Positions 8,607-56,316 of a stretch of 62,724 bases of DNA are shown here, in pieces; position 1 is the stretch's first letter; every line of letters begins with the position of its first letter. The notes under the pieces were generated by a model. It did no database searches and was not told where the DNA came from. It saw only the letters and a program-made list of their open reading frames with translations. The translations under genes were made by a program, and so were the position numbers. This stretch comes from a virus (Duplodnaviria; Caudoviricetes). Location of the stretch: positions 1 through 62,724 of the IMG/VR virus record IMGVR_UViG_3300032250_000155. The stretch is one strand, 5' to 3'.

Positions 8607-10616
8607 ATGTACAGAGAACATAAGAATTGCAAGAAATTAGAGATAAACGGTATAACTGTTAACGTGCCGCCTATTGGGCAGGTGTATAACGTTTTGACTA
8701 CCGTTTGGGAGAAAAGAGAACCTGTTAAGCGTTCTATGAAGAAAGAGTACCAATATTGGGAAAGACCACTTCCTCCTGAAGACTATGAGACGAAACGTAA
8801 AAAAGAAATTCAGGCACAAAAAACTAACCCAGAATATTACAATACCGAATTACAGAACTATCGTAATCAGGAATGGGATAGAAGATTAAATGGTTTTTGG
8901 TTTTACAATAATGGGCACGCTACCTACATAACAGGGCTTCATTACTTTTATCTAGTGCATTGGAAGATAGACGTAGGTTATCCTAGTTTTCGTATAACCG
9001 ATATGAACTTTTTTTATTTCCTAGAATACGTTTGCCAAGACCCTTGTAGCTTAGGAATGATTGAGGTAACGAAGCGTCGTCAAGGAAAAACAATGAGAGC
9101 AGGGGCTTTCTTATTTGAATTAACCTCAAGAAGCAAGAATAAAAACGCAGGCATTCAAAGTAAAACTTTTGAAGATGCAAAAGAAAACGTATTTGCTAAG
9201 GGTGTGATTATGCCATTTAAGTACCTACCCGATTTTTTTATTCCAATTTACGATACTGAAAAGGGGATGACCCCCAAAGGAGAACTTCGTTTTTTTAAGA
9301 CAAATAAGAGGGGTGCTACTGAATTTGACTTTGATAAAAAAATTGAATTAGAATCGAGTATTACATTTAAGTCTGCCGATAAGTTTTCTTATGATGGAAC
9401 AAAGCTTCATCGCTACCTTGCAGACGAAGCAGGTAAAACTAAAAACGTTGATGTGTATGACAGGCATCAGGTTGTTCAATTTTGTTTGCAACAAGAGGAA
9501 AATATTATTGGCAAGGCTTTATATACCACAACCGTTGAAGAAATGGAAGACGGAGGAGCTTCATTTAAGGAACTATGGATGGCTTCAGACCAATCTAAAA
9601 GAGATAAGAACGGAAGAACAAGGTCTGGGCTTTATCAATATTTTATGCCTGCATATAAAACTTTATTTTACGATATTTATGGATTCCCAGATGAAGAAAA
9701 AGCAAAAGAATATTACATAAATGCGAGGGAATCTCTCATCAGTGATAGCAGAGCTTTAGCCTCATACATTCGTAAAAACCCGTTTACGATAGAGGAGGCT
9801 TTTTTCAGCGAAGGAGAGACTTGTCTTTACGATGCGATGGCAATTAATAGACAACTAGAAAGTATATCGTGGATTGATAAAAAAGAATTATATTTGCAAG
9901 GAGAATTTATTTGGGAGAACGGAGTTCGTGATAGCAGAGTTGTTTTCAAGGAAACGGCAAACGGTAAATTCTTGGTTTTAAAAGAAGTAAATCCACTTAG
10001 TGCGGATGATTATAATGAGGTTGAGACATTAGGGACAAAGAAAACTCCAAAAGCAAAGAATAAAAGAGCGATAGGAGTTGACCCATTTGACCACAGTATA
10101 ACTACTTCAAATGAACGTTCTGATGGAGCGGCTTATGTTTATAATAAGTTTGATATAACATCTGAACTAAGTGAAACATTTTTAGTAGAATATTTGAACA
10201 GACCAGATAAGGCTGAAATATTTTACGAGGATATGATTAAGTTATGTCATTTCTTTGGTTGTGAAATTTTATCTGAAGACCAAAAGATAGGTTTAATAAA
10301 CTATTTTATAAATAGGGGATATGAGAAGTTTTTAGTTAAAATGCCCAATTCTGTTAAGTACGGAATATCTGCTAGTTCAAAAGTGCATCAGCAGATAGCC
10401 GAGGAAACAGAAACTTATATACTAGATAATTTACATAAAGTTAAATTTCCTAGACTTTTAAATGATTGGTTGCATTTTGATATAAATAAAACTACTAAAT
10501 TTGATGCAGCGATGGCAAGTGGTTACACTTTAATATCCTCTAGTAAATCTAAATTTGGAGTAAAAAAAGAACAAGAACAAAAATTATTTGAAATACGAGA
10601 TGTATTTCCTTTTTAA
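8607..10616 (+). CDS. terL: Terminase large subunit
   Basis: Walker A KRRQGKT, Walker B YLADEAGK, nuclease IGVDPFD...SDG and C-terminal FDAAMA motifs. Confidence 0.93.
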   Translation: MYREHKNCKKLEINGITVNVPPIGQVYNVLTTVWEKREPVKRSMKKEYQYWERPLPPEDYETKRKKEIQAQKTNPEYYNTELQNYRNQEWDRRLNGFWFYNNGHATYITGLHYFYLVHWKIDVGYPSFRITDMNFFYFLEYVCQDPCSLGMIEVTKRRQGKTMRAGAFLFELTSRSKNKNAGIQSKTFEDAKENVFAKGVIMPFKYLPDFFIPIYDTEKGMTPKGELRFFKTNKRGATEFDFDKKIELESSITFKSADKFSYDGTKLHRYLADEAGKTKNVDVYDRHQVVQFCLQQEENIIGKALYTTTVEEMEDGGASFKELWMASDQSKRDKNGRTRSGLYQYFMPAYKTLFYDIYGFPDEEKAKEYYINARESLISDSRALASYIRKNPFTIEEAFFSEGETCLYDAMAINRQLESISWIDKKELYLQGEFIWENGVRDSRVVFKETANGKFLVLKEVNPLSADDYNEVETLGTKKTPKAKNKRAIGVDPFDHSITTSNERSDGAAYVYNKFDITSELSETFLVEYLNRPDKAEIFYEDMIKLCHFFGCEILSEDQKIGLINYFINRGYEKFLVKMPNSVKYGISASSKVHQQIAEETETYILDNLHKVKFPRLLNDWLHFDINKTTKFDAAMASGYTLISSSKSKFGVKKEQEQKLFEIRDVFPF

Positions 10617-38598: not shown

Positions 38599-41500
38599 AT
38601 GTCAAAGCAACAAGCTAAAATAATAGACCTATCCAAATATGATAGTTTAATTCAAGAAGATACTTCATCTAATGTTGAAACCATAGATTTATCTAAATAC
38701 GATAGTGTTATACAACCTGTAAAAAAAAAAGACGTTACGGCATCATCTGGGCAGGAAGATTCTACGGGTTTATTCTCTGATATTGCAAATTATTTTGCAA
38801 CAGCAAAACCTGTTCATTCAGGCTTAGGAGTTTCCCAAACAAATAAAGAATTAGAGTCTAATTTTCAATACAATCCTAAGAAGCAACTTACTCAAGAAGA
38901 AGCTCTTCTTAGAAAGAAAAGTCTTGCTCAACGTGCTGCTATTGATGATGTAGTAACTTCTACATTGCTAAGAAGTACTCCTTATGATAATCTTTTAGAT
39001 AATTTCTTGGGCAAACCTCTTGCTTCAGGAGGCTTATCTTTAGTTGGAATGGCTACTAACGTATTAGGTGGAGCTGTTGATTTCTTTCAAAATGTAGCTG
39101 TAAAATCTTATGATGCTGTTAAAAAAGGGCAAATAGGAACAGGTTATACCCCTGAAAAAAAGGCTACTTCGGAAGAAGGATTGGGTGGAGGAATATATGA
39201 TTTTGCTCAAAACTTACAGAATGCGAGTAACTCTTTTATGCGTCAAGCTAAAGTCGATAGAGGAATTAAAAACGAAGACGTAGATAAAGGTTATTCAGAA
39301 TTAATTCAAGAAGGAAAGGTTGGTGACGCATTTACAACATTAGGACTTAGTGTTGTTCAGCAAATCCCACAAATGGTTGCACTTGCCTCAACAGGAGGCT
39401 CTGCTGGAGCAACATTTGCTGGAGCAACTCTTATGGGTACAGGTTCTTCGTTAGGAGAGGAGTATGCAAAGGATAAAGATATTGAGGCAAAAGATGCTTT
39501 AGTTGCTATTGGGAAAGGGGTTGTAGAAGGTGCTACTGAATCAATCTTTAGAACAGATATTGCCGCCTTAAATAAATTAAAGAGCTTAATTACAACTGAA
39601 GGTAAAGAAGCTGTTAAAGAGGAGTTTATTAGAAGCTTTGGAGGCGTTATAAAGAAAGCCTTATCTGGAGCAGGAGAAGAAGGGATGGAAGAAGTTATCG
39701 CCAACTTAGGTGGTACAATAATAGATAGTGCAGCTGATGATAAATTTGACCCTAAAAGATGGAATGATTTAATTCAAACTTCTATTGATTCTTTTGTGTT
39801 AGGGGCGGCTTCAGGAGGAGTAATGAGTGGAATGGTTGCTAAAGCTGCTTTAACACCTTTAACCGATGAACAAGAGCGTCAAATAAAAAGATACAAAGAG
39901 GTTGCAACAAATGATTCTTTTTCAGAAGACATTCGTAAGGCGGCTACTCAAAAAATAGATGATATTATTAAGGATAATGCTAATGAAACAAATAGTAATT
40001 ACAGACTAATAGCTGATATTGAAGATGTAAATAAGAGAGCTGAAGTTATTAAGAACTTAAATGAGATAAAAGATGAAGAGTCTAAGCAAAGAGAGCTCCA
40101 TGATGAGAGTTTAGTTGCGGCTTCAAATCAAATAATTGAAGATAAGAAAGCTAGAGTAGATAGTATTATTCAAGAAAACATTGAAAATATATTCGGCAGA
40201 AGTGCAGAAGGTATTAAGCAAGAACAGAAAGCTGCAAGAGAACGTGCCGCTAATTATTTGGATAACAATAATTATTATCTAGGGTTTACTGAAAATAATG
40301 CTGGTTTACTAGATAGTATTAATAATAACGAAGAGGTTGATGTAAGAGAAGCTAATAAGGCTACTGCTTCATTATATGACTTGGAGGCAAGCGTAATTGC
40401 AGACGACTCATTGACTAATCAAGAGCGTAATTATATCCTAAGAGACATTTACGCAAGGATAGATAGTGTTGAAGGTTATGATAAAATAACTAAAAATGGA
40501 GTTGCTTTAACTGAATCTGAAATAGAATCTAACCGTGCGTCTAACTCTAAAGTAAAAGAAGAAAGAGTTAAGAGAGTTCGTAATGATAGATTTGATGGTG
40601 AATTATTCAAATTTACTACAGAAGACGGAATAGAAATGTCTTTAAGAGCATCTGTCAATGAAAAGGGAGATGTTACAATGAAGCCTATTCGTAAATCTTT
40701 CCGATACAAAACAGAAACTGAAGCTAAAGCAAATGAAGGCTTTAATATAAAAGGTAATCTTCAGGTAGGAGAAATTAAGCGTAATCAAGATGGGGATATA
40801 ATATCTGCTACATTGACGGATAGTAAAACTAAAAAATCATTTAGAACAAATAATGAAGAATTAGTTTCTTACTTACAATCTGTTCAAGCAAGAGAATCTT
40901 TAGCTAAAACTGCAAAAGAAGGATATGTTGTGGATAGCGATATTGAAACGGTTGCAGGCAATGATGTCTTATCAAGAGTTACTCCGTACACTAAGACAAG
41001 ATTAAAAAACTATGCAGCTTCATTGAAAAGCATAAATCCTAATGCTAGGATAGTTCTATATAAGAGTGATGCTGATATGGCAAAAGGGCTTATAGCACAA
41101 GGCATTAAGCCAGCTAGAGCAAGGAAAGCGGCTAAGGGAGCTATGGGTCTTCAATACAATAACGTTGTCCATGCTAACGTATCAGTAATGGACGACTCAA
41201 CAATTGGGCACGAAGTATTCCACTTAGCGGTAAGAGATATATCAAGAGTTGAGCCAGCTGAATTTGTTAAAATGGTTAACAAGTTAAGTAAAATGCTTAA
41301 AAGCTCAAACAATAAATACCTTACTAATTTTGCAAACCTATACGAAGGTGAAGAATTAAAAGCTGAAGAGTTTTTGTCTGAATTGTTAGGCGTTTTGACA
41401 GCTAAAAGATTATCATTTAAAACTAAAAATGCAGATGGTGATGTAATCTCCGTTGAAGTAGATTTTGAATTGAAAAGAACATTGATGCAAAAGATTGTGT

Positions 41501-44500
41501 TAGCATTAAGAGAGTTCGTCCAAAAATATGCTGCTAAAACAGGGAATAAAACTTTAATGGATTTGGCAAATAAGATTGGTGAAGAAACTAATACTACCGA
41601 AAAGTTAGCCCAATTCTTTGAATCCTTCGCTAAATCATTAAGAGAAGGAACAGCTGTTGATATGTCTTATATCAATCAGTTGGATATGAAAGTTGAAAAA
41701 GGCTCTGTCGAACAAATTAGATTACAAAAAGGAGTAGAAGAAGTTCAGAAGAACGCTTCAGAATATAAAAGTAAAGAAAAAATAGCTAAAAGAGCTCCAG
41801 AACCAGTATATGAACTCTATGCCGATGTTTCATCTATGATGGCTAAGGCTTACGCAGATACTCCGACTAATTCTAAAGAAGCAAAAGTCGTAGCAGCTTA
41901 TGATGCACTAGAAAGTGAAACTATACATCAGTATGATTTTATTATATCTAAAGGGCTTAAAGTTGAAAAATATTATGGAGAAGGAGAGCCTTATGAAAAT
42001 TCAACTGCAATGTTGGATGATTTAAGGAACAATAATACTCTTAAATTTTTACCAAATGAAAATGCTTTTGGAGAAGATATAAATAAGGTTTCAGATAATA
42101 GAGGATTGAAGCCAAGTGGAAGATTCTTAGAAGATAATTATGAATTAACAGTTTCTGAAGTATTTAGAGTTGTTCACGATTATTTTGGACACGGAATATT
42201 AGGTAATCAGTTTGGTGCTATTGGCGAAGAGAATGCTACATTACAGCATTTGGATTTATATTCCAATCTTGCAGCTCCAGCTGTTATATTCCAAACTAGA
42301 GGGCAAAACTCTTGGGTTAATTTTAGTGGAGAAAATACTCGTGCCGCAGAATTAAGAAAAGAAGCTAGAAAATTAAGTAAAGAAGGAAAGCAAGAAGAGT
42401 CTAAAAAATTATTGGAAGAGGCAAATAAAATCTTTAAGTTTGCTGAACCGAAAGAAAATATATTCCCAAACAAATTTAATTTCAAACAATATGAGTCAGC
42501 AAGAAGAATCAGCGAACAAGAAAAAATTAACACTAGAGCAACGCCAAGAGATAATGACGTACCCGAATTATTGGCAACATACGTTGGAAGAAGCAGCGGA
42601 ACGAGGGGAATCAATAAAAGAAACATACGAAAATCTCAAAGACTTGGAAGCGTTTATGTAGACGTAATTGCAGAATATACTTTTGATGATAAAATTAACG
42701 AAGGTATAATGAAAGCATTCCCTAGCTTTAAGGGAGTTCAGAAAGTTTATGAAACAAAAGACGCTAAAGCATATAGAGATATGATGATAGCTTCCCTTGA
42801 GAATCATAAATTTGCCGCATCTGTTACCGTTTATTCGGAAGAAGATTTCAGTAAACTTAGAATGTTTATTACAGAGGATGGCTCTACAGGAGTAACATTG
42901 GGGAAGGATGGTTTATTAGGTGGTGCTTTTTCAGACCCTAAATCATCTAAGCCTAATAACTTAGCACAACTTATGGTATTGGGTATAAAAGAAGGAGCAA
43001 CTATTGCAGATGCTTTTGATACTATATTACCTGATTATTATGCTAACTTTGGATTCAAGGCAGTTGCTAGAACAGAATTTAATGATGAATTTAAGCCTAC
43101 GAAAGAAAGTGGTACTTCTGTTGTAGATTGGGATTATGATACATATAAGTCTTTCAATAACGGAAAGCCTGACCTTGTATTTTTTATCTACGATGGAAAT
43201 GATAGAAATACAATAGAAGATAGGCTAGGATTATTTGACATCTATTCTAAATACGAAAAAGCTAACACTCAATTTTTTGCTAAAGAAGAGTATGATTCAG
43301 CTGATATGTATGCTAAGAAGGAGGCTGTAAAAAGATTAGCATTTGAATTAGAAGAAAATGAGTTAGAACCTATTAAGCAACAGTTAACGAATAAGTTAAC
43401 CTCTGGTGAAGAAATTTCAAATGAAATAGAAGAAAAAGTTCACGATGGAAGCTTAAATGAAATAGAATTTATTCCACAAAAAAAGATTCTTTATCACGGT
43501 TCTCCATACAAATTCAATAAATTTAATAATGCTAAAATTGGCACAGGAGAAGGTGCTCAAGCGTATGGGTGGGGAATATATTTAAGTGAAGACCCAGAGG
43601 TTGCTCAATCATATGCTATGAGTAATCAAGGTAATAAGATGAATAGATTAAATTACCTTGATTTTTTAGGAAAGGATTTGCAGAAAAAAGCATACAAAGT
43701 TTTGCAGAATCCAAATACAAAACTTACTGATTGGAAAAGATTTCTTGAAGATAATAAAGGGTTTCTTGGGTTAAATATTTCAAGAACTAATCGTGATAAA
43801 TTATACAATGCTTTTGGTGAAAGAAACTATTATACAGCCGAAGTTACGGGACAAATGGTTAATGACGGAGTGTGGTTTGATTGGCATCGTTCTGGTTATT
43901 ATAATCAGCAATCGGCAACAACGGCATTTAACGGGTTTTTGAGCATACAGAGAGCATTAAGAATGATGCCATATAAAGACCAATACACTAAAGATACATT
44001 AGATGTAATCAATTTTATTTTAAACGAATATAATGGAGGAGGCAGAGGATTACAATTCTTATCGCAAAAAGGGTCAGATGTATATGAATCAATTCAATAT
44101 CGTTTCGCATCTATGCCATATGCTAATAAATCTGGCAACAACTTCTTAGGCACTGCACAGCAAATGACTTCTTGGTTATTGCAACAAGCGGGTGTCGATG
44201 GAATAAGAGTCCCAACATATTATGCTCAAGGAGGTAGAAATGATGGACTAAATAATTATGTAGTATTTGATGCAGAAGCAATTAGAATAAAAAACATAAA
44301 CTCTATTAGGGCACAATTAACAGGCGTTGACAAATCCGTATTGCTTGACCAAGATTTATTAGCTGACTCTAGGAAATCGGTAAAAGACCGCCAAAATAAA
44401 ACATTGGTTCAGTGGTTAAAGAGTAACTACAAGTCTATTTACAAAGGAGCATTTGAAAGAAATATAAACATAAGAAAAGAGCTTGAGAAAGCAGATATGA

Positions 44501-47340
44501 TTTATGCTTTACAAATGATGTACAATAAGGCTGGTGCTTCACAATTTGCTCAACTTAAATTTGCTCAAGCAAGTAATGAAATATATGGCAAACTTTCTAA
44601 AGAAGAAAAAGCTGTATTAGACACTATTATTCAATTAAGGAGAATTATTAAGATTGACGAAAATTTCGACAATCAACGAAGCAAATTCTTGTCAATGATT
44701 GAAAATGTTGATAATCAAATACAAGCCGCACTTGATGTAATAACTAATTCTGAATCTACTGAAGCTCAAATAGCTAAAGCTAAAAGAGATATTATTAATT
44801 ACAAAGAAGAATTAGCTAGACTAAAAAGAAAGGCTCAAAGTAAGATTAGACCTAAGCACGGTAAGTATAAGGGCAACAAACAGCCTAATAAAGAATCCTC
44901 CGAAGCCTCATTGGATAAAATGAAAGGCAGTATTGGAGAAGAGGCTTATGATGAATTAAATAAAAGAGCAGACTTATATTTCAAGACATTTAGTGATTTG
45001 TTGAAATATAAATTTGATAACGGATTGATAAATGAAGCAACATATAATATGTTTAAGGATTACGATTATCAGCCTCGTAACTTCTTAAAATTCTCTTATG
45101 GGCAATTGTATCAGGATGCGGATGGTAATTTCTCTGTAGAAACTCCTATTGATGCCAACTCTTTTATTACTAGAGGTACTATTATTAATGCAGATGAAAT
45201 GAAGAACATTGAATCTGGTGATTCAGATTACCTTGAGGCGGATTCTGCTAAACTATTGCACGCAGCTATGGTTACTGCTGAAATTAGAGTAGCTACAAAT
45301 AATGCTTTAAAAGCATTGGCTGAATCATCTACGTTAGCTAATTACGGTTTTATAAAAGAAGCCGAATACGAAAGATATGCTGACGGGAAGATTAAGGTAG
45401 ATAGGGATGGAGTTCCTAAGTTCATTGCTCCTTCTGATAATACATACAAGAATATGGTATATAAGGTTGACGGCAAGAAATATGCTTTTCAAATAAAAGA
45501 TACCGAAGAGATGCCTTTAGTGGAAGAATTTAATGATGCAAGGTCAGGGGATTTTAAAACTAGTGGATACAAGTTTGTATCTAAGTTACTTCTTAGTAAT
45601 CTAATGAAAGTTATAGCAACAGGTACAAATATTGCCTTCCCTATAACAAATATTCCTATTGACGTTATATCTCAAGTTCACTTAAACGACATCTACACAG
45701 GAACTGTTGGAGAGCAATACGCTCAAGCAATGTCAGGTACGCTGGATATGGCAAAGCAGTTGACTAAGATGAAATTCAACAAAGGGGATAACACTGAAAT
45801 AAGAAATTTATTATATGAATTTGGGCAAGCGGGTGGTTTAATGCAAAGTTTAACTCAAGAATACGCTCCTGATTTCGGAGGTAAAGCGGGGCAAGTAGTT
45901 GATGCTTTAGGTGTATTTGGTAATATTTCCGAATTGGCATCAAAATTAAATGCCTATAAAACTTCAAGAGATATATTATTAGATGAGTATTATGCTAAAA
46001 ATGGTAGAGAGGCACAAGACAAAGATTTATCAAAGATTAAGACGGAAGCGGCATATAAGTCTAGGGCAGCTATGGATTACCATAGAGGGGGAAACTGGGC
46101 TAAATATTTTGACGGATTTGCTCCTTATTTTAACGTAATGCTTCAAGTTGGCAAAATAACGGCTTCTTATATCAAGAATAACCCAATTGAGTTTAGTAAA
46201 AAACTAGCTCAATCAGGAGCATTTGTTATGGCAGTAACAATGTACAATCTTATGGTTGCATCAGATGATTATGATAATGATGATGTACAAAGAGATTTAC
46301 TTAATAACTTAGTTATCTTTAATCCATATAAAAATGAAGACGGAACAAGAGGTTACACAAAAATAGCTGTTCCTTCATTCGTTAAAATGTCTTTAAACTT
46401 TTTCCAAAACTTTGCAGAAAGTTTGTATGCGGAAGAGATTGTTAGAGATAATAAGATGGCTAAGAAGTTTGATGAAAAACATAAGGTTACTAAAAGTATG
46501 ATACCTATGTTAATGCCAAAATTAGGTACAGCAATTCCTCCTGCAATGAAAAGTGTAATAGAATACACTACTAATTACGATTTTTATAAAGGACAACAGA
46601 TTGTTGATAAAGATAGTAGGAATCCTACATCTCCTTTCTTAGAAGGGGTCAAAGATAAGAGTGTTGCTGAATTTTGGAAAGTATTAGCTGCTACAGAAAC
46701 AGGGAAATATTTAGAATTATCTCCTGCTAGATTACAGAAGGCTGCCAACAATATACTTCCTTTAACTAACCCTTATATCTCAATGGGTTACTCTATTGTT
46801 GATAAATCTGTTAATTCAGTAGCTAATCTACCAGAGAATTACCGTTCTAAATTTGATAAGAATGATAGTTGGACTTCTATTCCTGCTTCTATTCCAAATG
46901 CAATAAAGGAGCGTTTTACAGGAGTCACTGACCCTACTAAAAGATTTGTTAATAAAGAATATGAAAGTATCAGAAGAGAGGAGGCAGATAAAATGTTTGA
47001 AATGCACTCTCAAATAAAGGGTATGGTAGAAAATAACGCTTCGATATCTGATATTTTGAAGTATGCTAAAGAACAAGGAAGCGAATACAGGGAGTCTGCT
47101 AAAAGTTACGCAATGAATCTTAGGAAAAGAGAGAAGATTAATTATCGTGTTTATGAGCCAGATTACTTTGCAATGGCATTTGCTCCTAATGCAAAAGCTA
47201 AAGCGGAAATAATGTACGAGTTTGAGCAGAAAAACGATATCCCTAATATGAAGTTATATAGGAGAGACTTAATAAGATTTGGAATATTAACTCCTAATGT
47301 GAATCGTATCTACAAGGAACTTAAAGATAAAGAAAAATGA
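38599..47340 (+). CDS. Giant ejection protein / large polyvalent protein (zincin peptidase, GNAT-like, ADP-ribosyltransferase-like and LPD38-like domains)
   Basis: 2913 aa; G/A-rich membrane segment, GHEVFH...EEF, FRVVHDYFGH, DAFDTILPDYYANFGFKAV, LYHGS...GEGAQAYGWGIYLSE...GVDGI...NYVVFD. Confidence 0.8.
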   Translation: MSKQQAKIIDLSKYDSLIQEDTSSNVETIDLSKYDSVIQPVKKKDVTASSGQEDSTGLFSDIANYFATAKPVHSGLGVSQTNKELESNFQYNPKKQLTQEEALLRKKSLAQRAAIDDVVTSTLLRSTPYDNLLDNFLGKPLASGGLSLVGMATNVLGGAVDFFQNVAVKSYDAVKKGQIGTGYTPEKKATSEEGLGGGIYDFAQNLQNASNSFMRQAKVDRGIKNEDVDKGYSELIQEGKVGDAFTTLGLSVVQQIPQMVALASTGGSAGATFAGATLMGTGSSLGEEYAKDKDIEAKDALVAIGKGVVEGATESIFRTDIAALNKLKSLITTEGKEAVKEEFIRSFGGVIKKALSGAGEEGMEEVIANLGGTIIDSAADDKFDPKRWNDLIQTSIDSFVLGAASGGVMSGMVAKAALTPLTDEQERQIKRYKEVATNDSFSEDIRKAATQKIDDIIKDNANETNSNYRLIADIEDVNKRAEVIKNLNEIKDEESKQRELHDESLVAASNQIIEDKKARVDSIIQENIENIFGRSAEGIKQEQKAARERAANYLDNNNYYLGFTENNAGLLDSINNNEEVDVREANKATASLYDLEASVIADDSLTNQERNYILRDIYARIDSVEGYDKITKNGVALTESEIESNRASNSKVKEERVKRVRNDRFDGELFKFTTEDGIEMSLRASVNEKGDVTMKPIRKSFRYKTETEAKANEGFNIKGNLQVGEIKRNQDGDIISATLTDSKTKKSFRTNNEELVSYLQSVQARESLAKTAKEGYVVDSDIETVAGNDVLSRVTPYTKTRLKNYAASLKSINPNARIVLYKSDADMAKGLIAQGIKPARARKAAKGAMGLQYNNVVHANVSVMDDSTIGHEVFHLAVRDISRVEPAEFVKMVNKLSKMLKSSNNKYLTNFANLYEGEELKAEEFLSELLGVLTAKRLSFKTKNADGDVISVEVDFELKRTLMQKIVLALREFVQKYAAKTGNKTLMDLANKIGEETNTTEKLAQFFESFAKSLREGTAVDMSYINQLDMKVEKGSVEQIRLQKGVEEVQKNASEYKSKEKIAKRAPEPVYELYADVSSMMAKAYADTPTNSKEAKVVAAYDALESETIHQYDFIISKGLKVEKYYGEGEPYENSTAMLDDLRNNNTLKFLPNENAFGEDINKVSDNRGLKPSGRFLEDNYELTVSEVFRVVHDYFGHGILGNQFGAIGEENATLQHLDLYSNLAAPAVIFQTRGQNSWVNFSGENTRAAELRKEARKLSKEGKQEESKKLLEEANKIFKFAEPKENIFPNKFNFKQYESARRISEQEKINTRATPRDNDVPELLATYVGRSSGTRGINKRNIRKSQRLGSVYVDVIAEYTFDDKINEGIMKAFPSFKGVQKVYETKDAKAYRDMMIASLENHKFAASVTVYSEEDFSKLRMFITEDGSTGVTLGKDGLLGGAFSDPKSSKPNNLAQLMVLGIKEGATIADAFDTILPDYYANFGFKAVARTEFNDEFKPTKESGTSVVDWDYDTYKSFNNGKPDLVFFIYDGNDRNTIEDRLGLFDIYSKYEKANTQFFAKEEYDSADMYAKKEAVKRLAFELEENELEPIKQQLTNKLTSGEEISNEIEEKVHDGSLNEIEFIPQKKILYHGSPYKFNKFNNAKIGTGEGAQAYGWGIYLSEDPEVAQSYAMSNQGNKMNRLNYLDFLGKDLQKKAYKVLQNPNTKLTDWKRFLEDNKGFLGLNISRTNRDKLYNAFGERNYYTAEVTGQMVNDGVWFDWHRSGYYNQQSATTAFNGFLSIQRALRMMPYKDQYTKDTLDVINFILNEYNGGGRGLQFLSQKGSDVYESIQYRFASMPYANKSGNNFLGTAQQMTSWLLQQAGVDGIRVPTYYAQGGRNDGLNNYVVFDAEAIRIKNINSIRAQLTGVDKSVLLDQDLLADSRKSVKDRQNKTLVQWLKSNYKSIYKGAFERNINIRKELEKADMIYALQMMYNKAGASQFAQLKFAQASNEIYGKLSKEEKAVLDTIIQLRRIIKIDENFDNQRSKFLSMIENVDNQIQAALDVITNSESTEAQIAKAKRDIINYKEELARLKRKAQSKIRPKHGKYKGNKQPNKESSEASLDKMKGSIGEEAYDELNKRADLYFKTFSDLLKYKFDNGLINEATYNMFKDYDYQPRNFLKFSYGQLYQDADGNFSVETPIDANSFITRGTIINADEMKNIESGDSDYLEADSAKLLHAAMVTAEIRVATNNALKALAESSTLANYGFIKEAEYERYADGKIKVDRDGVPKFIAPSDNTYKNMVYKVDGKKYAFQIKDTEEMPLVEEFNDARSGDFKTSGYKFVSKLLLSNLMKVIATGTNIAFPITNIPIDVISQVHLNDIYTGTVGEQYAQAMSGTLDMAKQLTKMKFNKGDNTEIRNLLYEFGQAGGLMQSLTQEYAPDFGGKAGQVVDALGVFGNISELASKLNAYKTSRDILLDEYYAKNGREAQDKDLSKIKTEAAYKSRAAMDYHRGGNWAKYFDGFAPYFNVMLQVGKITASYIKNNPIEFSKKLAQSGAFVMAVTMYNLMVASDDYDNDDVQRDLLNNLVIFNPYKNEDGTRGYTKIAVPSFVKMSLNFFQNFAESLYAEEIVRDNKMAKKFDEKHKVTKSMIPMLMPKLGTAIPPAMKSVIEYTTNYDFYKGQQIVDKDSRNPTSPFLEGVKDKSVAEFWKVLAATETGKYLELSPARLQKAANNILPLTNPYISMGYSIVDKSVNSVANLPENYRSKFDKNDSWTSIPASIPNAIKERFTGVTDPTKRFVNKEYESIRREEADKMFEMHSQIKGMVENNASISDILKYAKEQGSEYRESAKSYAMNLRKREKINYRVYEPDYFAMAFAPNAKAKAEIMYEFEQKNDIPNMKLYRRDLIRFGILTPNVNRIYKELKDKEK

Positions 47341-53877: not shown

Positions 53878-54088
53878 TGTAACGGTACTTATTCTTAAGT
53901 ATATATAACCATAAGGGAATCATCCATTCGATAAAATATCCATTTACCTTTAATAATCTTCTATCATTTCTTTTGGTAGAATAAGAAAGCCAGTCAGCTT
54001 TTTCGTTAAAGAAGTAAACACCCCATCCGAATAATCTGAAGCAGAATGTCTCATTAGTGTAATGGAAGATGAAGTATTTAGTTATCAT
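53870..54088 (-). CDS. Hypothetical aromatic-rich protein
   Basis: Likely start MITKY at 54088; overlaps the next gene. Confidence 0.5.
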   Translation of the reverse strand: MITKYFIFHYTNETFCFRLFGWGVYFFNEKADWLSYSTKRNDRRLLKVNGYFIEWMIPLWLYILKNKYRYNG

Positions 54089-54190
54089 TTGTATTTTGTG
54101 TATTGCGCTACACATATTTGTCTGTTTTTGTATGATTTATTATACATTATCATTCAATTTTACATATTATGAATGATATACTTTACATAT

Positions 54191-54264
54191 TGCGCAGCCC
54201 CAAAGGATTTGAACCTTTACCAACGGTTTTGGAGACCGTTATACTACCATTATACTAGAGACGC
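54191..54264 (-). tRNA. tRNA-Trp(CCA), irregular acceptor stem
   Basis: ACGGT-CTCCAAA-ACCGT anticodon arm; AAAGG-TTCAAAT-CCTTT T arm. Confidence 0.8.
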
Positions 54265-54319
54265 ATTTGCTTGTCTTTCCAAGCGGTCATCAAATTTTGG
54301 TAAGGAAGGAAATCTCTTG

Positions 54320-54428
54320 CCGAGATAACAGGAATCGAACCTGTAATAATAATTGCTACAAGAGGCTCATTAAAAATGTATCGAACTTTGTTACGCAATT
54401 ATAGCGTCTACCATTCCGCCATATCTCG
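54320..54428 (-). ncRNA. tRNA-like RNA 1 with the anticodon arm replaced by a long hairpin
   Basis: CGAGATA/TATCTCG acceptor, GCGGAATGGTAGACGC D arm, ACAGG-TTCGATT-CCTGT T arm; no 7-nt anticodon loop. Confidence 0.8.
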
Positions 54429-54543
54429 TGGTTGGGTCTTTCCCCAATTGTCACCTATTGCTTTTGACGTCTCAATTTGGAATTGTTTCCTAAAAACTTC
54501 TCCTCCTCTCTATTAGGGCTGCATAATGGTCATTTACCCCTCG

Positions 54544-54640
54544 TAGTCAGGACAGGATTCGAACCTGTAATGCAGAGAGTAGTCCTCAACGGGTAACGCC
54601 TTAACATACCATACATTTGACACCATTTCGCCACCTGACT
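54544..54640 (-). ncRNA. tRNA-like RNA 2 with a variable central insert
   Basis: AGTCAGG/CCTGACT acceptor, ACAGG-TTCGAAT-CCTGT T arm, degenerate D arm. Confidence 0.75.
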
Positions 54641-54700
54641 AAATTCTAATTCTATGCTTACTACTTGTCTTGTCCTATGAATTAGTAACAGTCTTCATTG

Positions 54701-54799
54701 TAGTCAGGACAGGATTCGAACCTGTACGATAAGTAACTTTAAGACCATATTGTAAACCTATCTTATTATGGTCAGCGTCTATCATTCCGCCACCTGACT
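54701..54799 (-). ncRNA. tRNA-like RNA 3 with an enlarged anticodon loop
   Basis: Same acceptor and T arm as RNA 2; GCGGAATGATAGACGC D arm; GACCATA/TATGGTC stem with a 17-nt loop. Confidence 0.8.
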
Positions 54800-54805
54800 A
54801 TATTT

Positions 54806-54946
54806 TTACTCAAAATTTTCACACTTGCAACATATCCTTCCACTATACAAGCCCGTAATTATACCTATTCTGTCAGGCTTATAATTATGAATACAAGTTT
54901 GTTGTTTCCAAGTTTTTTTAATCCATAAAACAAAATCACCTAACAT
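54806..54946 (-). CDS. Small Cys/His peptide inside the tRNA cluster
   Basis: MLGDFV...CIHNY...ICCKCE; likely start 54946. Confidence 0.5.
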   Translation of the reverse strand: MLGDFVLWIKKTWKQQTCIHNYKPDRIGIITGLYSGRICCKCENFE

Positions 54947-54967
54947 AGTTATTATTTTAAATTTAAG

Positions 54968-55049
54968 TGCTCTCGGCAGGATTCGAACCTGCACATCTTG
55001 CGACACCAGAGCCTAAGTCTGGCGTGTCTACCAATTTCACCACAAGAGC
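54968..55049 (-). tRNA. tRNA-Leu(TAG)
   Basis: Full cloverleaf with CCAGA-CTTAGGC-TCTGG anticodon arm and a long variable arm. Confidence 0.92.
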
Positions 55050-55187
55050 AATTAAAGAGAAGCTGTGGGTCTTTCGGGGTTTCTGGTCTGCATTCCTCCA
55101 ATTAGTGTACGTTCCACTATAAACCCTTTTTAAGAACGGCTCTGCTTTTTGTCGGAGAAAGCCTAACAGCATCCTACTTCTCTTTAG

Positions 55188-55260
55188 AGCTTCTGAAAGG
55201 AGTCGAACCCTCAACCTTTTCCTTACAAGGGAATTGCACTACCAATTGTGCTACAGAAGC
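55188..55260 (-). tRNA. tRNA-Thr(TGT)
   Basis: GCTTCTG/CAGAAGC acceptor; TTCC-CTTGTAA-GGAA anticodon arm; TTCGACT T loop. Confidence 0.9.
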
Positions 55261-55328
55261 AAATTCGATGTCTTTCCATCAGTCAGCTTTCTATTTAAGA
55301 CAAGGAAGTTAGTGAGCATATACCTATA

Positions 55329-55367
55329 AATTTTGTAACAAATTTAGCATACATTTGTTACAAAATT
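55329..55367. repeat. 15-bp perfect inverted repeat
   Basis: AATTTTGTAACAAAT-9 nt-ATTTGTTACAAAATT. Confidence 0.8.
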
Positions 55368-55439
55368 ATATGCAAAAATGTATCATATATTAGTCATTAT
55401 GCCCTATTATATGCAATAACGTATCATATATGAGACATT

Positions 55440-55682
55440 TTACTCTAAAATAGACTTAATTTTTGATAGAATACTTTTAGAGCTAGAGATACTTTTGTCT
55501 GTAGAATCCTTGTCAAGCTGTAGATTAATAATCTGTTGCTCAATAGAAGCCTTAAATCCTTCTTGTTGCTCAATCAATTGAGACAACTCATCTCTTGTCC
55601 TAGTAAATACCGATAAGATATTTTCTTTTTTAGCTTGCAAAGAGCCAAGCGTTGTTACTTCTTTTTGTCGTGTGAAAAACAT
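55440..55682 (-). CDS. Coiled-coil hypothetical protein
   Basis: 80-aa ORF with heptad pattern. Confidence 0.6.
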   Translation of the reverse strand: MFFTRQKEVTTLGSLQAKKENILSVFTRTRDELSQLIEQQEGFKASIEQQIINLQLDKDSTDKSISSSKSILSKIKSILE

Positions 55683-55733
55683 TTTTTCGTTAGTTTACGG
55701 TTAATAAAAATTTAATAGAACTAGAACTGATTG

Positions 55734-55805
55734 AAGCGTGTGGGAGACTCGAACTCCCATCTCAAATCGTATCACATTGAATTTTGCCTTTCAAACTAAC
55801 ACGCT
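55734..55805 (-). tRNA. Degenerate tRNA / tRNA-like element (GAT in an irregular loop)
   Basis: AGCGTGT/ACACGCT acceptor and GGGAG-TTCGAGT-CTCCC T arm; anticodon arm non-canonical. Confidence 0.6.
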
Positions 55806-55831
55806 TTCCTTTAATCCCTTTAATTACATAT

Positions 55832-55839
55832 CAAAGGTA
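55832..55839 (-). promoter_or_regulatory. Bacteroidetes -7 element TACCTTTG heading the tRNA cluster
   Basis: TAnnTTTG 26 nt upstream of the first tRNA-like element. Confidence 0.6.
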
Positions 55840-55880
55840 AAACAAACTATTTAATTAAACAAGCATTAGGTTTAGTTTCT

Positions 55881-56066
55881 TTATAATCTCTTTTTCTTTC
55901 GAAGTTCAACTGCATAGATGTAGTATCCATTAAAGTAAATACTCCTAATGTCACCCAACAAAAGGTCATATGGAACATTTCTTGAGTACTTCTGTATGCA
56001 AATCACATACCCAAATAGAATAAGTTCGTATCCTTGAACGTATCTATACTTATACTTTCGTATCAT
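55881..56066 (-). CDS. Hypothetical protein
   Basis: 61-aa coupled ORF. Confidence 0.45.
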   Translation of the reverse strand: MIRKYKYRYVQGYELILFGYVICIQKYSRNVPYDLLLGDIRSIYFNGYYIYAVELRKKKRL

Positions 56067-56316
56067 TTTGTATTTTAGTTTTAAGTGTTTCGTAATCTAG
56101 TGTGCATATAAAACTTTTACCTGCCGACATAACCTCTGAGTATTGTTTACCTCCTGTATCATCTGTTTCATATGGGGCAATAGCATCAATGTTATAGAAA
56201 GTGAGTGGCTCAGACTCATAAAAAGAGTAGTCGTGGCTTATGCCTAACTCCTCAAGAGTATCTGTAGTCTCGTCGTGGATAAAACACTGCAATTCAATTC
56301 CTTTTGTAAACATCAT
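56050..56316 (-). CDS. Hypothetical protein
   Basis: 88-aa ORF. Confidence 0.6.
   Translation of the reverse strand: MMFTKGIELQCFIHDETTDTLEELGISHDYSFYESEPLTFYNIDAIAPYETDDTGGKQYSEVMSAGKSFICTLDYETLKTKIQNDTKV

What the first reader, a model, noticed from the sequence alone, without database searches (positions are those of the whole stretch)
54269..55285. Covarying hairpin motif UGAC-N-stem-GGAAAGAC-stem immediately 5' of three tRNA/tRNA-like genes
Seen (- strand): TGACC-GCTT-GGAAAGAC-AAGC (54289-54269, 4 nt before tRNA-Trp), TGACA-ATTGG-GGAAAGAC-CCAAC (54453-54431, 2 nt before tRNA-like RNA 1) and TGACT-GAT-GGAAAGAC-ATC (55285-55267, 6 nt before tRNA-Thr). The loop and TGAC are invariant while the stems differ completely yet pair. 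Each has TTCC about 15-30 nt upstream (CTTCCTT in two) that could pseudoknot with the loop GGAA. Inference: a structured RNA element for tRNA processing, transcript protection or antitermination. Phage tRNA-linked ribozymes (theta, HDV-like) are a precedent, but I cannot assign this motif to them.
Basis: partly seen in the sequence, partly recalled or inferred. Interest (0 to 1): 0.72.

Follow-up and report, generated by a model that had tools for sequence, protein, structure and literature searches.

The report
Widespread phage RNA leader hairpin motif
The three sites are real copies of a small, strongly conserved RNA hairpin that phages of many bacterial groups place in untranslated RNA, often just ahead of tRNA genes; it matches no catalogued RNA family and its job is still unknown.

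Summary
Observation confirmed. The motif UGAC-N-stem-GGAAAGAC-stem occurs 3 times in the window, all on the minus strand. The copies lie 4, 2 and 6 nt before tRNA-Trp, a tRNA-like gene and tRNA-Thr. 0 of 100 shuffles gave 3 matches.

The core is about 27 nt: UGAC, a base that is mostly A, a 4-bp covarying stem, the invariant loop GGAAAGAC, then AA. Where the search pattern left the stem free, the four stem levels paired in 52, 51, 50 and 42 of 52 unique copies, and the fifth level in 3 of 52. G-U pairs put the hairpin on the gene-sense strand, so it is RNA.

Copies occur in phages and prophages of Bacteroidota, Bacillota, Pseudomonadota, Spirochaetota and other phyla. The motif is not tRNA-specific. 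45 of 114 viral copies and 27 of 85 genome copies sit 3-7 nt before a tRNA-type gene. Others precede hammerheads, terminators or ORFs, or lie in the early leaders of temperate phages.

Rfam has no match. The motif is not a theta/HDV-like ribozyme. The proposed TTCC pseudoknot is not conserved. No linked protein was found. Function is not shown. I favour a docking hairpin for a universal host machine: the transcription elongation complex (about 0.3) or RNase P (about 0.25).

The parts
54265..54289 (-). Motif copy 1: UGAC-C, stem GCUU/AAGC, loop GGAAAGAC, then AAAU linker; 5' leader of tRNA-Trp
   Evidence: model R1 34.6 bits; fold -7.1 kcal/mol, z -2.64
54429..54453 (-). Motif copy 2: UGAC-A, stem (A)UUGG/CCAA(C), loop GGAAAGAC, then CA; 5' leader of the tRNA-like gene 54320-54428
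   Evidence: R1 21.6 bits. The homologous site in L013 keeps the loop with a different, still pairing stem (UCGA/UCGA)
55261..55285 (-). Motif copy 3: UGAC-U, stem GAU/AUC, loop GGAAAGAC, then GAAUUU; 5' leader of tRNA-Thr. It is the first unit after a promoter-like repeat region
   Evidence: R1 25.6 bits; fold z -2.26. An identical hairpin occurs in L015 without a tRNA behind it
54192..54264 (-). tRNA-Trp (cca), unit downstream of copy 1
   Evidence: ARAGORN; Rfam tRNA 49.3 bits
54320..54428 (-). tRNA-like RNA with acceptor, D- and T-arms and a 43-nt insert in the anticodon region; unit downstream of copy 2
   Evidence: Rfam tRNA 43.6 bits with alignment
55187..55260 (-). tRNA-Thr (tgt), unit downstream of copy 3
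   Evidence: ARAGORN; Rfam tRNA 65.3 bits

Best explanation
The three sites are copies of a self-contained RNA hairpin module of about 27 nt. It consists of UGAC (rarely UGGC), one base (A in 83%), a 4-bp stem of free sequence, the invariant loop GGAAAGAC, then AA. The loop's first G and last C probably pair, which gives a 5-bp stem capped by GAAAGA.

Phages and prophages of many bacterial phyla carry the module on the sense strand of untranslated RNA. It sits at the 5' edge of RNA units. Most often it lies 3-7 nt before a tRNA or tRNA-like acceptor stem. It also lies before hammerheads, terminator hairpins and some ORFs, and in multiple copies in early-operon leaders of temperate phages.

Shown here: the motif is real and selected, it is RNA, it is phage-borne, it is not tRNA-specific, and it needs no conserved neighbouring sequence or gene.

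Inferred: the loop is invariant across phyla and no phage protein travels with it, so it is a docking surface for a universally conserved host machine that acts on nascent RNA. My favoured mechanism is that it binds the transcription elongation complex as it leaves the RNA exit channel, so that RNA polymerase reads through the structured, untranslated or terminator-containing stretch that follows. That would make it a miniature, factor-independent counterpart of nut/put sites. In this window it would keep transcription going through the tRNA block. RNase P would then cut the module off with the leader.
For: Real and selected. There are 3 window copies against 0.03 expected. With no stem constraint in the search pattern, the four stem levels pair in 52, 51, 50 and 42 of 52 unique copies and the fifth level in 3 of 52; the shuffle maxima were 34, 35, 41 and 32. 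The 31 pattern matches that lack UGAC pair at chance level. On a model-fitted alignment, 83.5% of cells are paired against 64.4% in shuffles, 0 of 500 shuffles reach the observed covariation, and slid partners fall to 22-54%. Homologous sites in the window and L013 keep the loop with different stems.

RNA strand. At the four stem levels there are 11 wobble pairs on the sense strand (U-G 8, G-U 3). There are 2 C-A or A-C cells, which would be the wobbles of the opposite strand.

Autonomy. There is no conservation beyond about 8 nt upstream. Flank-to-flank pairing equals the control.

Breadth. 96 of 107 viral and 81 of 118 genome matches have fully paired free stem positions. Perfect hairpins occur in loci titled Bacteroidota, Bacillota, beta- and gamma-proteobacteria, Magnetococcales, Spirochaetia, Verrucomicrobia, Ignavibacteria and Gastranaerophilales.

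Phage-borne. In an E. coli chromosome the 3 good copies lie within 181 nt of one prophage, and the remaining match is at the level of the reversed-pattern control.

No partner gene. The most shared protein cluster within the loci is a CI-like repressor in 24 of 356 loci. The most shared small ORF is in 20 loci.

For the elongation reading. In E. coli, Pseudescherichia and Stenotrophomonas prophages, 3-4 copies lie about 50 nt downstream of the promoter beside the repressor gene. They sit ahead of intrinsic terminators and before the first ORF, where lambdoid phages keep nutL or putL (recalled), and no N-like gene intervenes. Many copies are followed within 3-20 nt by a terminator hairpin. A terminator lies within 150 nt downstream in 19 of 114 viral and 9 of 85 genome copies, against about 5-6% of random windows. 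Tandem copies exist. One copy can serve several abutting tRNAs.
Against: No experiment and no RNA data are available.

The sharply peaked 3-7 nt spacing to tRNA 5' ends is not predicted by an elongation role and fits RNase P better.

Terminator enrichment is modest and is also seen upstream (13 of 114 and 6 of 85), as expected of any intergenic site.

tRNAs that carry the motif do not have more U-rich trailers than those without it: mean T count 3.14 against 3.55, and TTTT in 5 of 42 against 26 of 263.

The window's tRNA block has no predicted terminator on the sense strand.

No 27-nt RNA is known to modify RNA polymerase. The one factor-free precedent, put, needs about 73 nt.

The prophage copies lie only in the leftward leader. 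No nutR-like copy was seen.

Host genes do not use the motif in the 4 bacterial genomes checked.
Confidence: 0.3

Rival explanations
1. RNase P leader determinant. The hairpin and its A-rich linker form a high-affinity 5' leader that docks on the universally conserved RNase P holoenzyme. This speeds or directs 5' cleavage of phage tRNAs, aberrant tRNA-like RNAs and other helix-ended RNAs.
For: 45 of 114 viral copies and 27 of 85 genome copies are followed by an acceptor stem plus T-arm. The opposite-strand control gives 3 of 114 and 2 of 85. The hairpin end lies 3-7 nt from the acceptor start in 42 of 45 and 25 of 27 cases. All three window copies are of this kind. The linker is A-rich, with U commonest just before the tRNA; this matches leader preferences of bacterial RNase P as I recall them. 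RNase P is universal, which fits an invariant loop across phyla. The prophage leaders also hold tRNA-like pieces.
Against: Half or more of the copies are not next to a tRNA-type fold. Tandem copies, copies before terminators and copies 25-35 nt before start codons have no obvious RNase P logic. Only 42 of 305 phage tRNAs in the loci carry the motif, and neither CCA status nor trailers differ. Host tRNA genes do not use it. No leader-hairpin recognition by RNase P is known to me.
Confidence: 0.25
2. Binding site for an unidentified trans factor, host or unlinked phage protein. The factor sets RNA processing or stability at unit boundaries, for example a 5' protective cap after upstream cleavage, a differential-stability signal ahead of capsid genes, or a protein sponge in early leaders.
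For: A hairpin with an invariant loop and single-stranded flanks is the usual form of a protein operator. The prophage leaders carry extra single-stranded AGGAAAGACC repeats beside the hairpin copies, as a sponge would. A copy plus a strong hairpin lies just upstream of a scaffold gene in a Firmicutes-type phage.
Against: No protein co-occurs within the loci. The known global RNA binders I considered (CsrA, Hfq) are not universal across the phyla that carry the motif (recalled). ORF starts within 60 nt are no more frequent than on the opposite strand: 19 against 26 of 114, and 21 against 28 of 85.
Confidence: 0.2
3. A new, very small self-cleaving ribozyme, or part of one that uses the helix that follows. 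It would punctuate phage transcripts.
For: The distribution is like that of hammerhead, twister and HDV-like ribozymes: phage intergenic, next to tRNAs, invariant bases irrespective of host phylum, no protein partner. It sits directly beside a hammerhead in two loci.
Against: It has only one 4-5 bp helix and about 15 fixed bases. There is no second helix, no pseudoknot and no covarying partner. No Rfam ribozyme family matches.
Confidence: 0.05
4. A DNA-level element: a promoter, a single-stranded DNA hairpin promoter of the N4 type, or a recombinase/HUH site.
For: TGACA resembles a sigma-70 -35 hexamer. The motif lies at a fixed short distance before units. The consensus scan pairs the loop's AAGACA with a TATAAT inside tRNA-Trp.
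Against: The base before TGAC carries no information. The implied transcription starts fall inside the tRNA. In the prophages a good sigma-70 promoter lies about 50 nt upstream of the first copy. Covarying stems with sense-strand wobble pairs argue for RNA. No polymerase, HUH or recombinase gene is linked.
Confidence: 0.05

Closest known systems
Lambdoid nut sites (boxA + boxB) and the N antitermination system
   Same: A short hairpin with a purine-rich, GNRA-like loop and an adjacent conserved single-stranded element. In temperate prophages it lies just downstream of the early leftward promoter and ahead of terminators.
   Different: No N-like gene lies next to it and no conserved protein is linked. 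The loop is invariant across phyla, whereas boxB co-varies with each phage's N (recalled). The 5' element is UGAC, not a boxA. Most copies lie in tRNA or ncRNA blocks.
HK022 put RNA (factor-independent antiterminator)
   Same: A cis-acting nascent phage RNA that needs no phage protein and lies in the early leaders of lambdoid phages.
   Different: put is about 73 nt with two long stem-loops and a triplex, and it binds the beta-prime zinc-binding domain (PMC9378689, passages seen). This motif is one 4-5 bp hairpin of about 27 nt.
Theta (minimal HDV-like) ribozymes of gut phages
   Same: Phage-borne, tRNA-linked, abundant and independent of a protein (PMC10879173, sections 4, 7, 8 and 13).
   Different: Theta ribozymes are about 56 nt nested double pseudoknots. 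Their cleavage site abuts the 3' end of a tRNA. This motif is a simple hairpin at the 5' side of the next gene and has no long-range pairing.
Bacterial pre-tRNA 5' leaders recognised by RNase P
   Same: The copies in this window are by position part of the leader that RNase P removes. The linker is A-rich.
   Different: No conserved leader hairpin is known for RNase P substrates (recalled). Host tRNA genes lack the motif.

Membership tests
Theta / HDV-like ribozyme | Nested double pseudoknot (P1, P1.1, P2, P3) of about 50-60 nt | tested here: not met
   Conservation ends about 8 nt upstream of UGAC. Pairing between the flanks equals the shuffled-partner control: 3.94 against 3.98, 5.05 against 5.13 and 5.67 against 5.68. 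The 55-nt spacer before tRNA-Trp folds only into the local hairpin, z -1.30.
Theta / HDV-like ribozyme | Ribozyme 5' end (cleavage site) within 5 nt of a tRNA 3' end | tested here: not met
   Copy 1 starts 30 nt after the upstream tRNA-like gene. Copy 2 starts 89 nt after the upstream gene. Copy 3 has no tRNA within 400 nt upstream.
Theta / HDV-like ribozyme | Match to the authors' RNArobo descriptor, with the catalytic C in J4/2 | not testable with these tools
   The descriptor is in Supplementary Fig. 6, and supplements are closed. Rfam HDV-type models gave no hit at E up to 10.
nut (boxA/boxB) antitermination site | BoxB-type hairpin with a GNRA-like purine loop | tested here: inconclusive
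   The fold gives a 5-bp stem and a GAAAGA hexaloop. The likeness to boxB is recalled, not computed.
nut (boxA/boxB) antitermination site | Cognate N-type protein encoded just downstream | tested here: not met
   Terminators, not a gene, follow the copies in the prophage leaders. No shared protein or small ORF was found across 356 loci.
put RNA | Two long stem-loops, about 70 nt | tested here: not met
   The module is one hairpin of about 27 nt. The put architecture is taken from PMC9378689 passages.
Any Rfam 15 family | Covariance-model match | tested here: not met
   Only tRNA hits at the gathering score over the whole window. Nothing at the motif sites at E up to 10 over 53900-56100.
UG27 reverse-transcriptase ncRNA arrays | Units of about 150 nt beside an RT gene | tested here: not met
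   The motif-rich locus L248 has no RT among its 5 plus-strand ORFs of 100 aa or more that were scanned (7 ORFs listed in all; one scanned ORF is a capsid protein). No RT cluster appears among the 25 most shared clusters printed. The family description comes from bioRxiv 10.64898/2026.09.22.753630, section 9.

The most novel reading that the evidence does not exclude
The hairpin is a universal, protein-free handle by which phages of nearly all bacterial phyla reprogram a conserved host RNA machine. It could be the smallest known processive or local antiterminator acting directly on RNA polymerase, or a leader that captures RNase P. Its invariant loop would contact a site conserved across Bacteria. 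A still bolder variant is a self-cleaving ribozyme of about 27 nt.
Probability: 0.25. Interest if true: 0.9.

Novelty: new variant of a known kind. Interest (0 to 1): 0.72.

Why it matters
If the motif is what it seems, it is one of the most widespread phage RNA signals not yet in any catalogue. At least 118, 119 and 120 stretches were found before the scans stopped. The 8-nt loop is identical from Bacteroidota to Enterobacteria and Firmicutes. About 450 of 5426 complete E. coli genomes carry a relative of one motif-bearing prophage leader.

An invariant RNA surface with no linked protein points to a direct contact with a universal host machine. Finding that partner would bear on three questions: how phages keep untranslated RNA blocks (tRNAs, tRNA-like RNAs, ribozymes, early-leader sRNAs) transcribed or processed; how lambdoid prophages without N or put pass their leader terminators; and how to annotate phage non-coding regions. 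The motif is short, portable and easy to test in E. coli.

Tried and rejected
1. TTCC/GGAA pseudoknot. TTCC occurs upstream in 27 of 187 copies and downstream in 20 of 187. Other pieces of the loop complement are rare. Rejected.

2. A closing helix or larger fold around the hairpin. Observed pairing equals the control. Rejected.

3. Theta/HDV-like ribozyme. The architecture and position do not fit. The authors' descriptor is in closed supplements and could not be applied.

4. Linked protein partner. All-against-all BLAST was run on 13,583 ORFs of 70 aa or more and on 11,226 ORFs of 35-110 aa from about 356 loci. The top families are a CI-like repressor (24 loci), DnaB (20 loci) and a 65-aa ORF (20 loci). 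The window's own early genes show only HTH domains in Pfam.

5. Terminator association. The enrichment is weak and two-sided.

6. Trailer U-richness or CCA status of motif-bearing tRNAs. No difference.

7. A downstream helix at a fixed distance in non-tRNA contexts. No clear peak.

8. Expression data. No RNA holder was listed for the region. Read laying was not used, because only DNA contigs were on offer.

9. Cultured phages. A 66-nt family query found nothing in INPHARED. The tRNA region itself matched only generic tRNAs. The prophage leader did match two Stenotrophomonas phages.

10. Phage P22. The single GGAAAGAC in a published P22 sRNA table has GGAC rather than UGAC, a 3-bp stem, and on my reading lies within a reading frame. 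I took it as chance.

11. 23S rRNA mimicry. The loop equals 23S positions 2056-2063 (abstracts), but the bases flanking the loop do not follow the rRNA. Kept only as a remark.

12. UG27 arrays. Not linked.

13. A sigma-70 promoter reading. The implied starts fall inside the tRNA.

15. Literature. Searches found no paper that describes this motif. These were listings and abstracts only, apart from the papers named above.
Full report
**What is in the window**

The window is a complete 62.7-kb phage genome with direct terminal repeats. It is about 34% G+C. Its early genes, on the minus strand, include DnaB and an exonuclease.

Between 54192 and 55805 on the minus strand lie several RNA genes:
- tRNA-Trp, tRNA-Leu and tRNA-Thr;
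- an odd tRNA at 55733-55805;
- three tRNA-like genes at 54320-54428, 54544-54640 and 54701-54799. These keep acceptor, D- and T-arms but carry 23-43 nt inserts in the anticodon region.

They lie 4, 2 and 6 nt before tRNA-Trp, the tRNA-like gene at 54428 and tRNA-Thr. TGACN{4,8}GGAAAGAC matches 3 times, against 0.03 expected, and 0 of 100 shuffles reached 3. The other tRNA and tRNA-like genes of the block have no copy.

**Family**

Twelve relatives of the phage were fetched through its exonuclease. The nine closest (74-81% identity) have neither tRNAs nor the motif in that region. Two more distant ones (L013, L015) have two copies each. The tRNA/motif block is therefore accessory.

In L013, the site homologous to window copy 2 keeps UGAC and the loop. 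Its stem is different but still pairs. A second L013 copy has the loop GGAAAGAU, which keeps the putative closing pair as G-U.

- loop plus the D-arm of the tRNA-like family in viral contigs: 118 stretches;
- a pattern blind to what follows (TGACAGC..GGAAAGAC..GCAA) in viral contigs: 119 stretches;
- the same blind pattern in one genome per prokaryote species: 120 stretches.

Of 107 unique viral matches to the blind pattern, 96 have free stem positions of equal length that all pair. Of 118 unique genome matches, 81 do. I estimate chance at below about 10%. Some genome hits are chance or other repeats, for example those in Uhrbacteria, Planctomycetaceae and Syntrophales loci. Perfect hairpins occur in loci titled Paludibacteraceae, Flavobacterium, Lachnospiraceae, Clostridia, Streptococcus, Yersinia, Acinetobacter, Snodgrassella, Malikia, Magnetococcales, Spirochaetia, Brevifollis, Ignavibacteriaceae, Gastranaerophilales and others.

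**Anatomy**

Across 187 unique hairpin-forming copies the core is as follows:
- UGAC, with UGGC in a few copies;
- one base, A in 83%;
- a stem of 4 bp in 146 copies, 3 bp in 38 and 5 bp in 3;
- the loop GGAAAGAC;
- then A (90%) and A (80%). These two values are partly forced by the second search pattern. In the first set they are 84% and 64%.

Upstream there is only a weak A-rich patch at -7 to -4 and a G at -2.

The cleanest covariation test uses the 52 unique copies from the first scan, whose pattern did not constrain the stem. The four stem levels pair in 52, 51, 50 and 42 of 52 copies, with all four Watson-Crick types represented. Level 5 pairs in 3 of 52 and is mostly A opposite A. Shuffle maxima were 34, 35, 41 and 32. 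The 31 pattern matches without UGAC pair at chance level.

On the model-fitted alignment A2 (136 hits, 113 distinct), 83.5% of cells pair against 64.4% in shuffles. 0 of 500 shuffles reach the covariation score, and slid partners drop to 22-54%. That alignment leans towards the structure, and its outer pairs were fixed by the search pattern.

Wobble pairs at the four stem levels are 11 on the sense strand. Only 2 C-A or A-C cells would be wobbles on the other strand. The hairpin therefore forms in RNA of the same sense as the tRNAs.

RNAfold closes the loop by its own G-C, leaving GAAAGA.

**What it is not**

- Rfam 15 gives only tRNA hits.
- The TTCC pseudoknot and any closing helix are not supported.
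- Theta ribozymes are P4-less HDV-like double pseudoknots of about 56 nt whose cleavage site abuts a tRNA 3' end (PMC10879173, sections 4, 7, 8 and 13). This motif is a 27-nt hairpin at the 5' side of the next gene. It lies 30 or 89 nt from the upstream tRNA-like gene, or has none upstream. The authors' descriptor is in a closed supplement, so that exact test was not possible.
- put RNA is about 73 nt with two long stem-loops (PMC9378689, passages).
- UG27 arrays sit beside RT genes (bioRxiv 10.64898/2026.09.22.753630, section 9). None was found here.

**Context**

In the scans that were blind to what follows, 45 of 114 viral copies and 27 of 85 genome copies are followed by an acceptor stem plus T-arm. 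The opposite-strand control gives 3 and 2. The spacing is 3-7 nt in 42 of 45 and 25 of 27 cases. My detector misses some tRNA-like genes, so the true share is higher, perhaps half.

ORF starts within 60 nt are not enriched: 19 against 26, and 21 against 28.

The remaining copies precede several kinds of unit:
- type-I hammerheads, in L248 and in an Acinetobacter locus;
- RNAs closed by long stems;
- intrinsic-terminator hairpins;
- SD-ATG starts 25-35 nt away.

Only 42 of 305 unique ARAGORN tRNAs in the loci carry the motif. They span many isotypes. Their trailers and CCA status are no different from the rest. Tightly abutting tRNAs lack it.

**Temperate prophages**

In E. coli, Pseudescherichia and Stenotrophomonas prophages and phages, 3-4 copies plus single-stranded AGGAAAGACC repeats fill the long untranslated leader. 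The leader starts about 50 nt downstream of a sigma-70-type promoter next to the CI-like repressor gene. It contains one or two intrinsic terminators and ends at the first ORF of the operon that runs on to the integrase gene.

One terminator module resembles the 3' part of RprA (37.4 bits, below the gathering score of 70).

In that E. coli chromosome the three good copies are all in this leader. The other match is at control level. About 440-454 of 5426 E. coli genomes hold a relative of the leader.

**Partner**

No protein family travels with the motif. The best clusters cover 24 of 356 loci, and 20 loci for small ORFs. The window's neighbouring genes give no RNA-related domain.

An invariant loop across phyla without a linked gene points to one of three things: a universal host partner, an intrinsic property, or an unlinked factor.

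**Mechanism (inferred)**

I rank the readings as follows.

- A. A docking hairpin for the elongation complex that promotes read-through of the following structured or terminator-bearing RNA, about 0.3. This explains the leader position in prophages, the copies just before terminators, the tandem copies, and one copy serving several genes. It does not explain the tight spacing to tRNA 5' ends, and it has no support from trailer composition.
- B. An RNase P leader determinant, about 0.25. This explains the spacing and the tRNA bias, but not the other half of the contexts.
- C. A site for an unknown stability or processing factor, about 0.2.
- D. A tiny ribozyme, about 0.05.
- E. A DNA-level element, about 0.05.

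In this window, whatever the primary role, the three copies are by position part of the leaders that RNase P must remove.

**Novelty**

I found no description of the motif in Rfam 15 or in six literature searches. Those searches cover only the held library, and supplements were closed.

The loop is identical to 23S rRNA positions 2056-2063, the TLR13 ligand and Erm target (abstracts). The flanks do not extend the likeness, so I treat this as a coincidence worth remembering.

Noticed in passing
window 54320-54428, 54544-54640, 54701-54799 (-): Three tRNA-like genes with normal acceptor, D- and T-arms but 23-43 nt inserts where the anticodon loop should be. The same family (5' end AGTCAGGTGGCGGAATGG...) occurs in more than 50 viral contigs, with lengths of about 90-160 nt. 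Their function is unknown.
   Followed up: partly
window 55050-55186 (-): The 137-nt spacer between tRNA-Thr and tRNA-Leu folds with an 11-bp closing stem (MFE -35.5 kcal/mol, z -2.35). It has no Rfam match and is a possible further ncRNA.
   Followed up: partly
window 54429-54543 (-) and L013 about 10070-10160: The spacer before motif copy 2 is conserved between two phages, with apparent compensatory changes in small hairpins. The single-sequence fold is not significant (z -0.44).
   Followed up: partly
window 55733-55805 (-): An odd tRNA that ARAGORN reads with a four-base anticodon (gata). Rfam tRNA score is 37.3 bits.
   Followed up: no
window 55340-55440 and 54120-54190 (-): Repeated AT-rich promoter-like sequences lie upstream of motif copy 3 and downstream of tRNA-Trp. 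They probably bound the tRNA transcription unit.
   Followed up: no
L248 476-545; L271 (Acinetobacter genome locus): The motif is followed after 3 nt by the same type-I hammerhead ribozyme in a viral contig and in a bacterial genome. L248 holds five motif copies, each ahead of a structured RNA unit.
   Followed up: partly
L372 5075-5440; L400 3500-4340; L190 6900-7360; L306 4262-4420 (-): Lambdoid prophage early-leftward leaders of 350-850 nt have no ORF. They hold 3-4 motif copies, AGGAAAGACC repeats, an RprA-like terminator module (Rfam RprA 37.4 bits, below gathering) and, in an ST131 strain, a T-arm/tRNA-like piece. Relatives of the leader occur in about 450 of 5426 E. coli genomes.
   Followed up: partly
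motif loop, all copies: GGAAAGAC is identical to 23S rRNA 2056-2063, which is the A2058 Erm site and the TLR13 ligand. The flanking bases do not follow the rRNA.
   Followed up: partly
window 38599-47340 (+): A 2913-aa ORF with ADP-ribosyltransferase (ART-PolyVal/DUF3990) and LPD38 polyvalent-protein domains. Further giant ORFs of 2464, 1260 and 1239 aa have no Pfam match.
   Followed up: no
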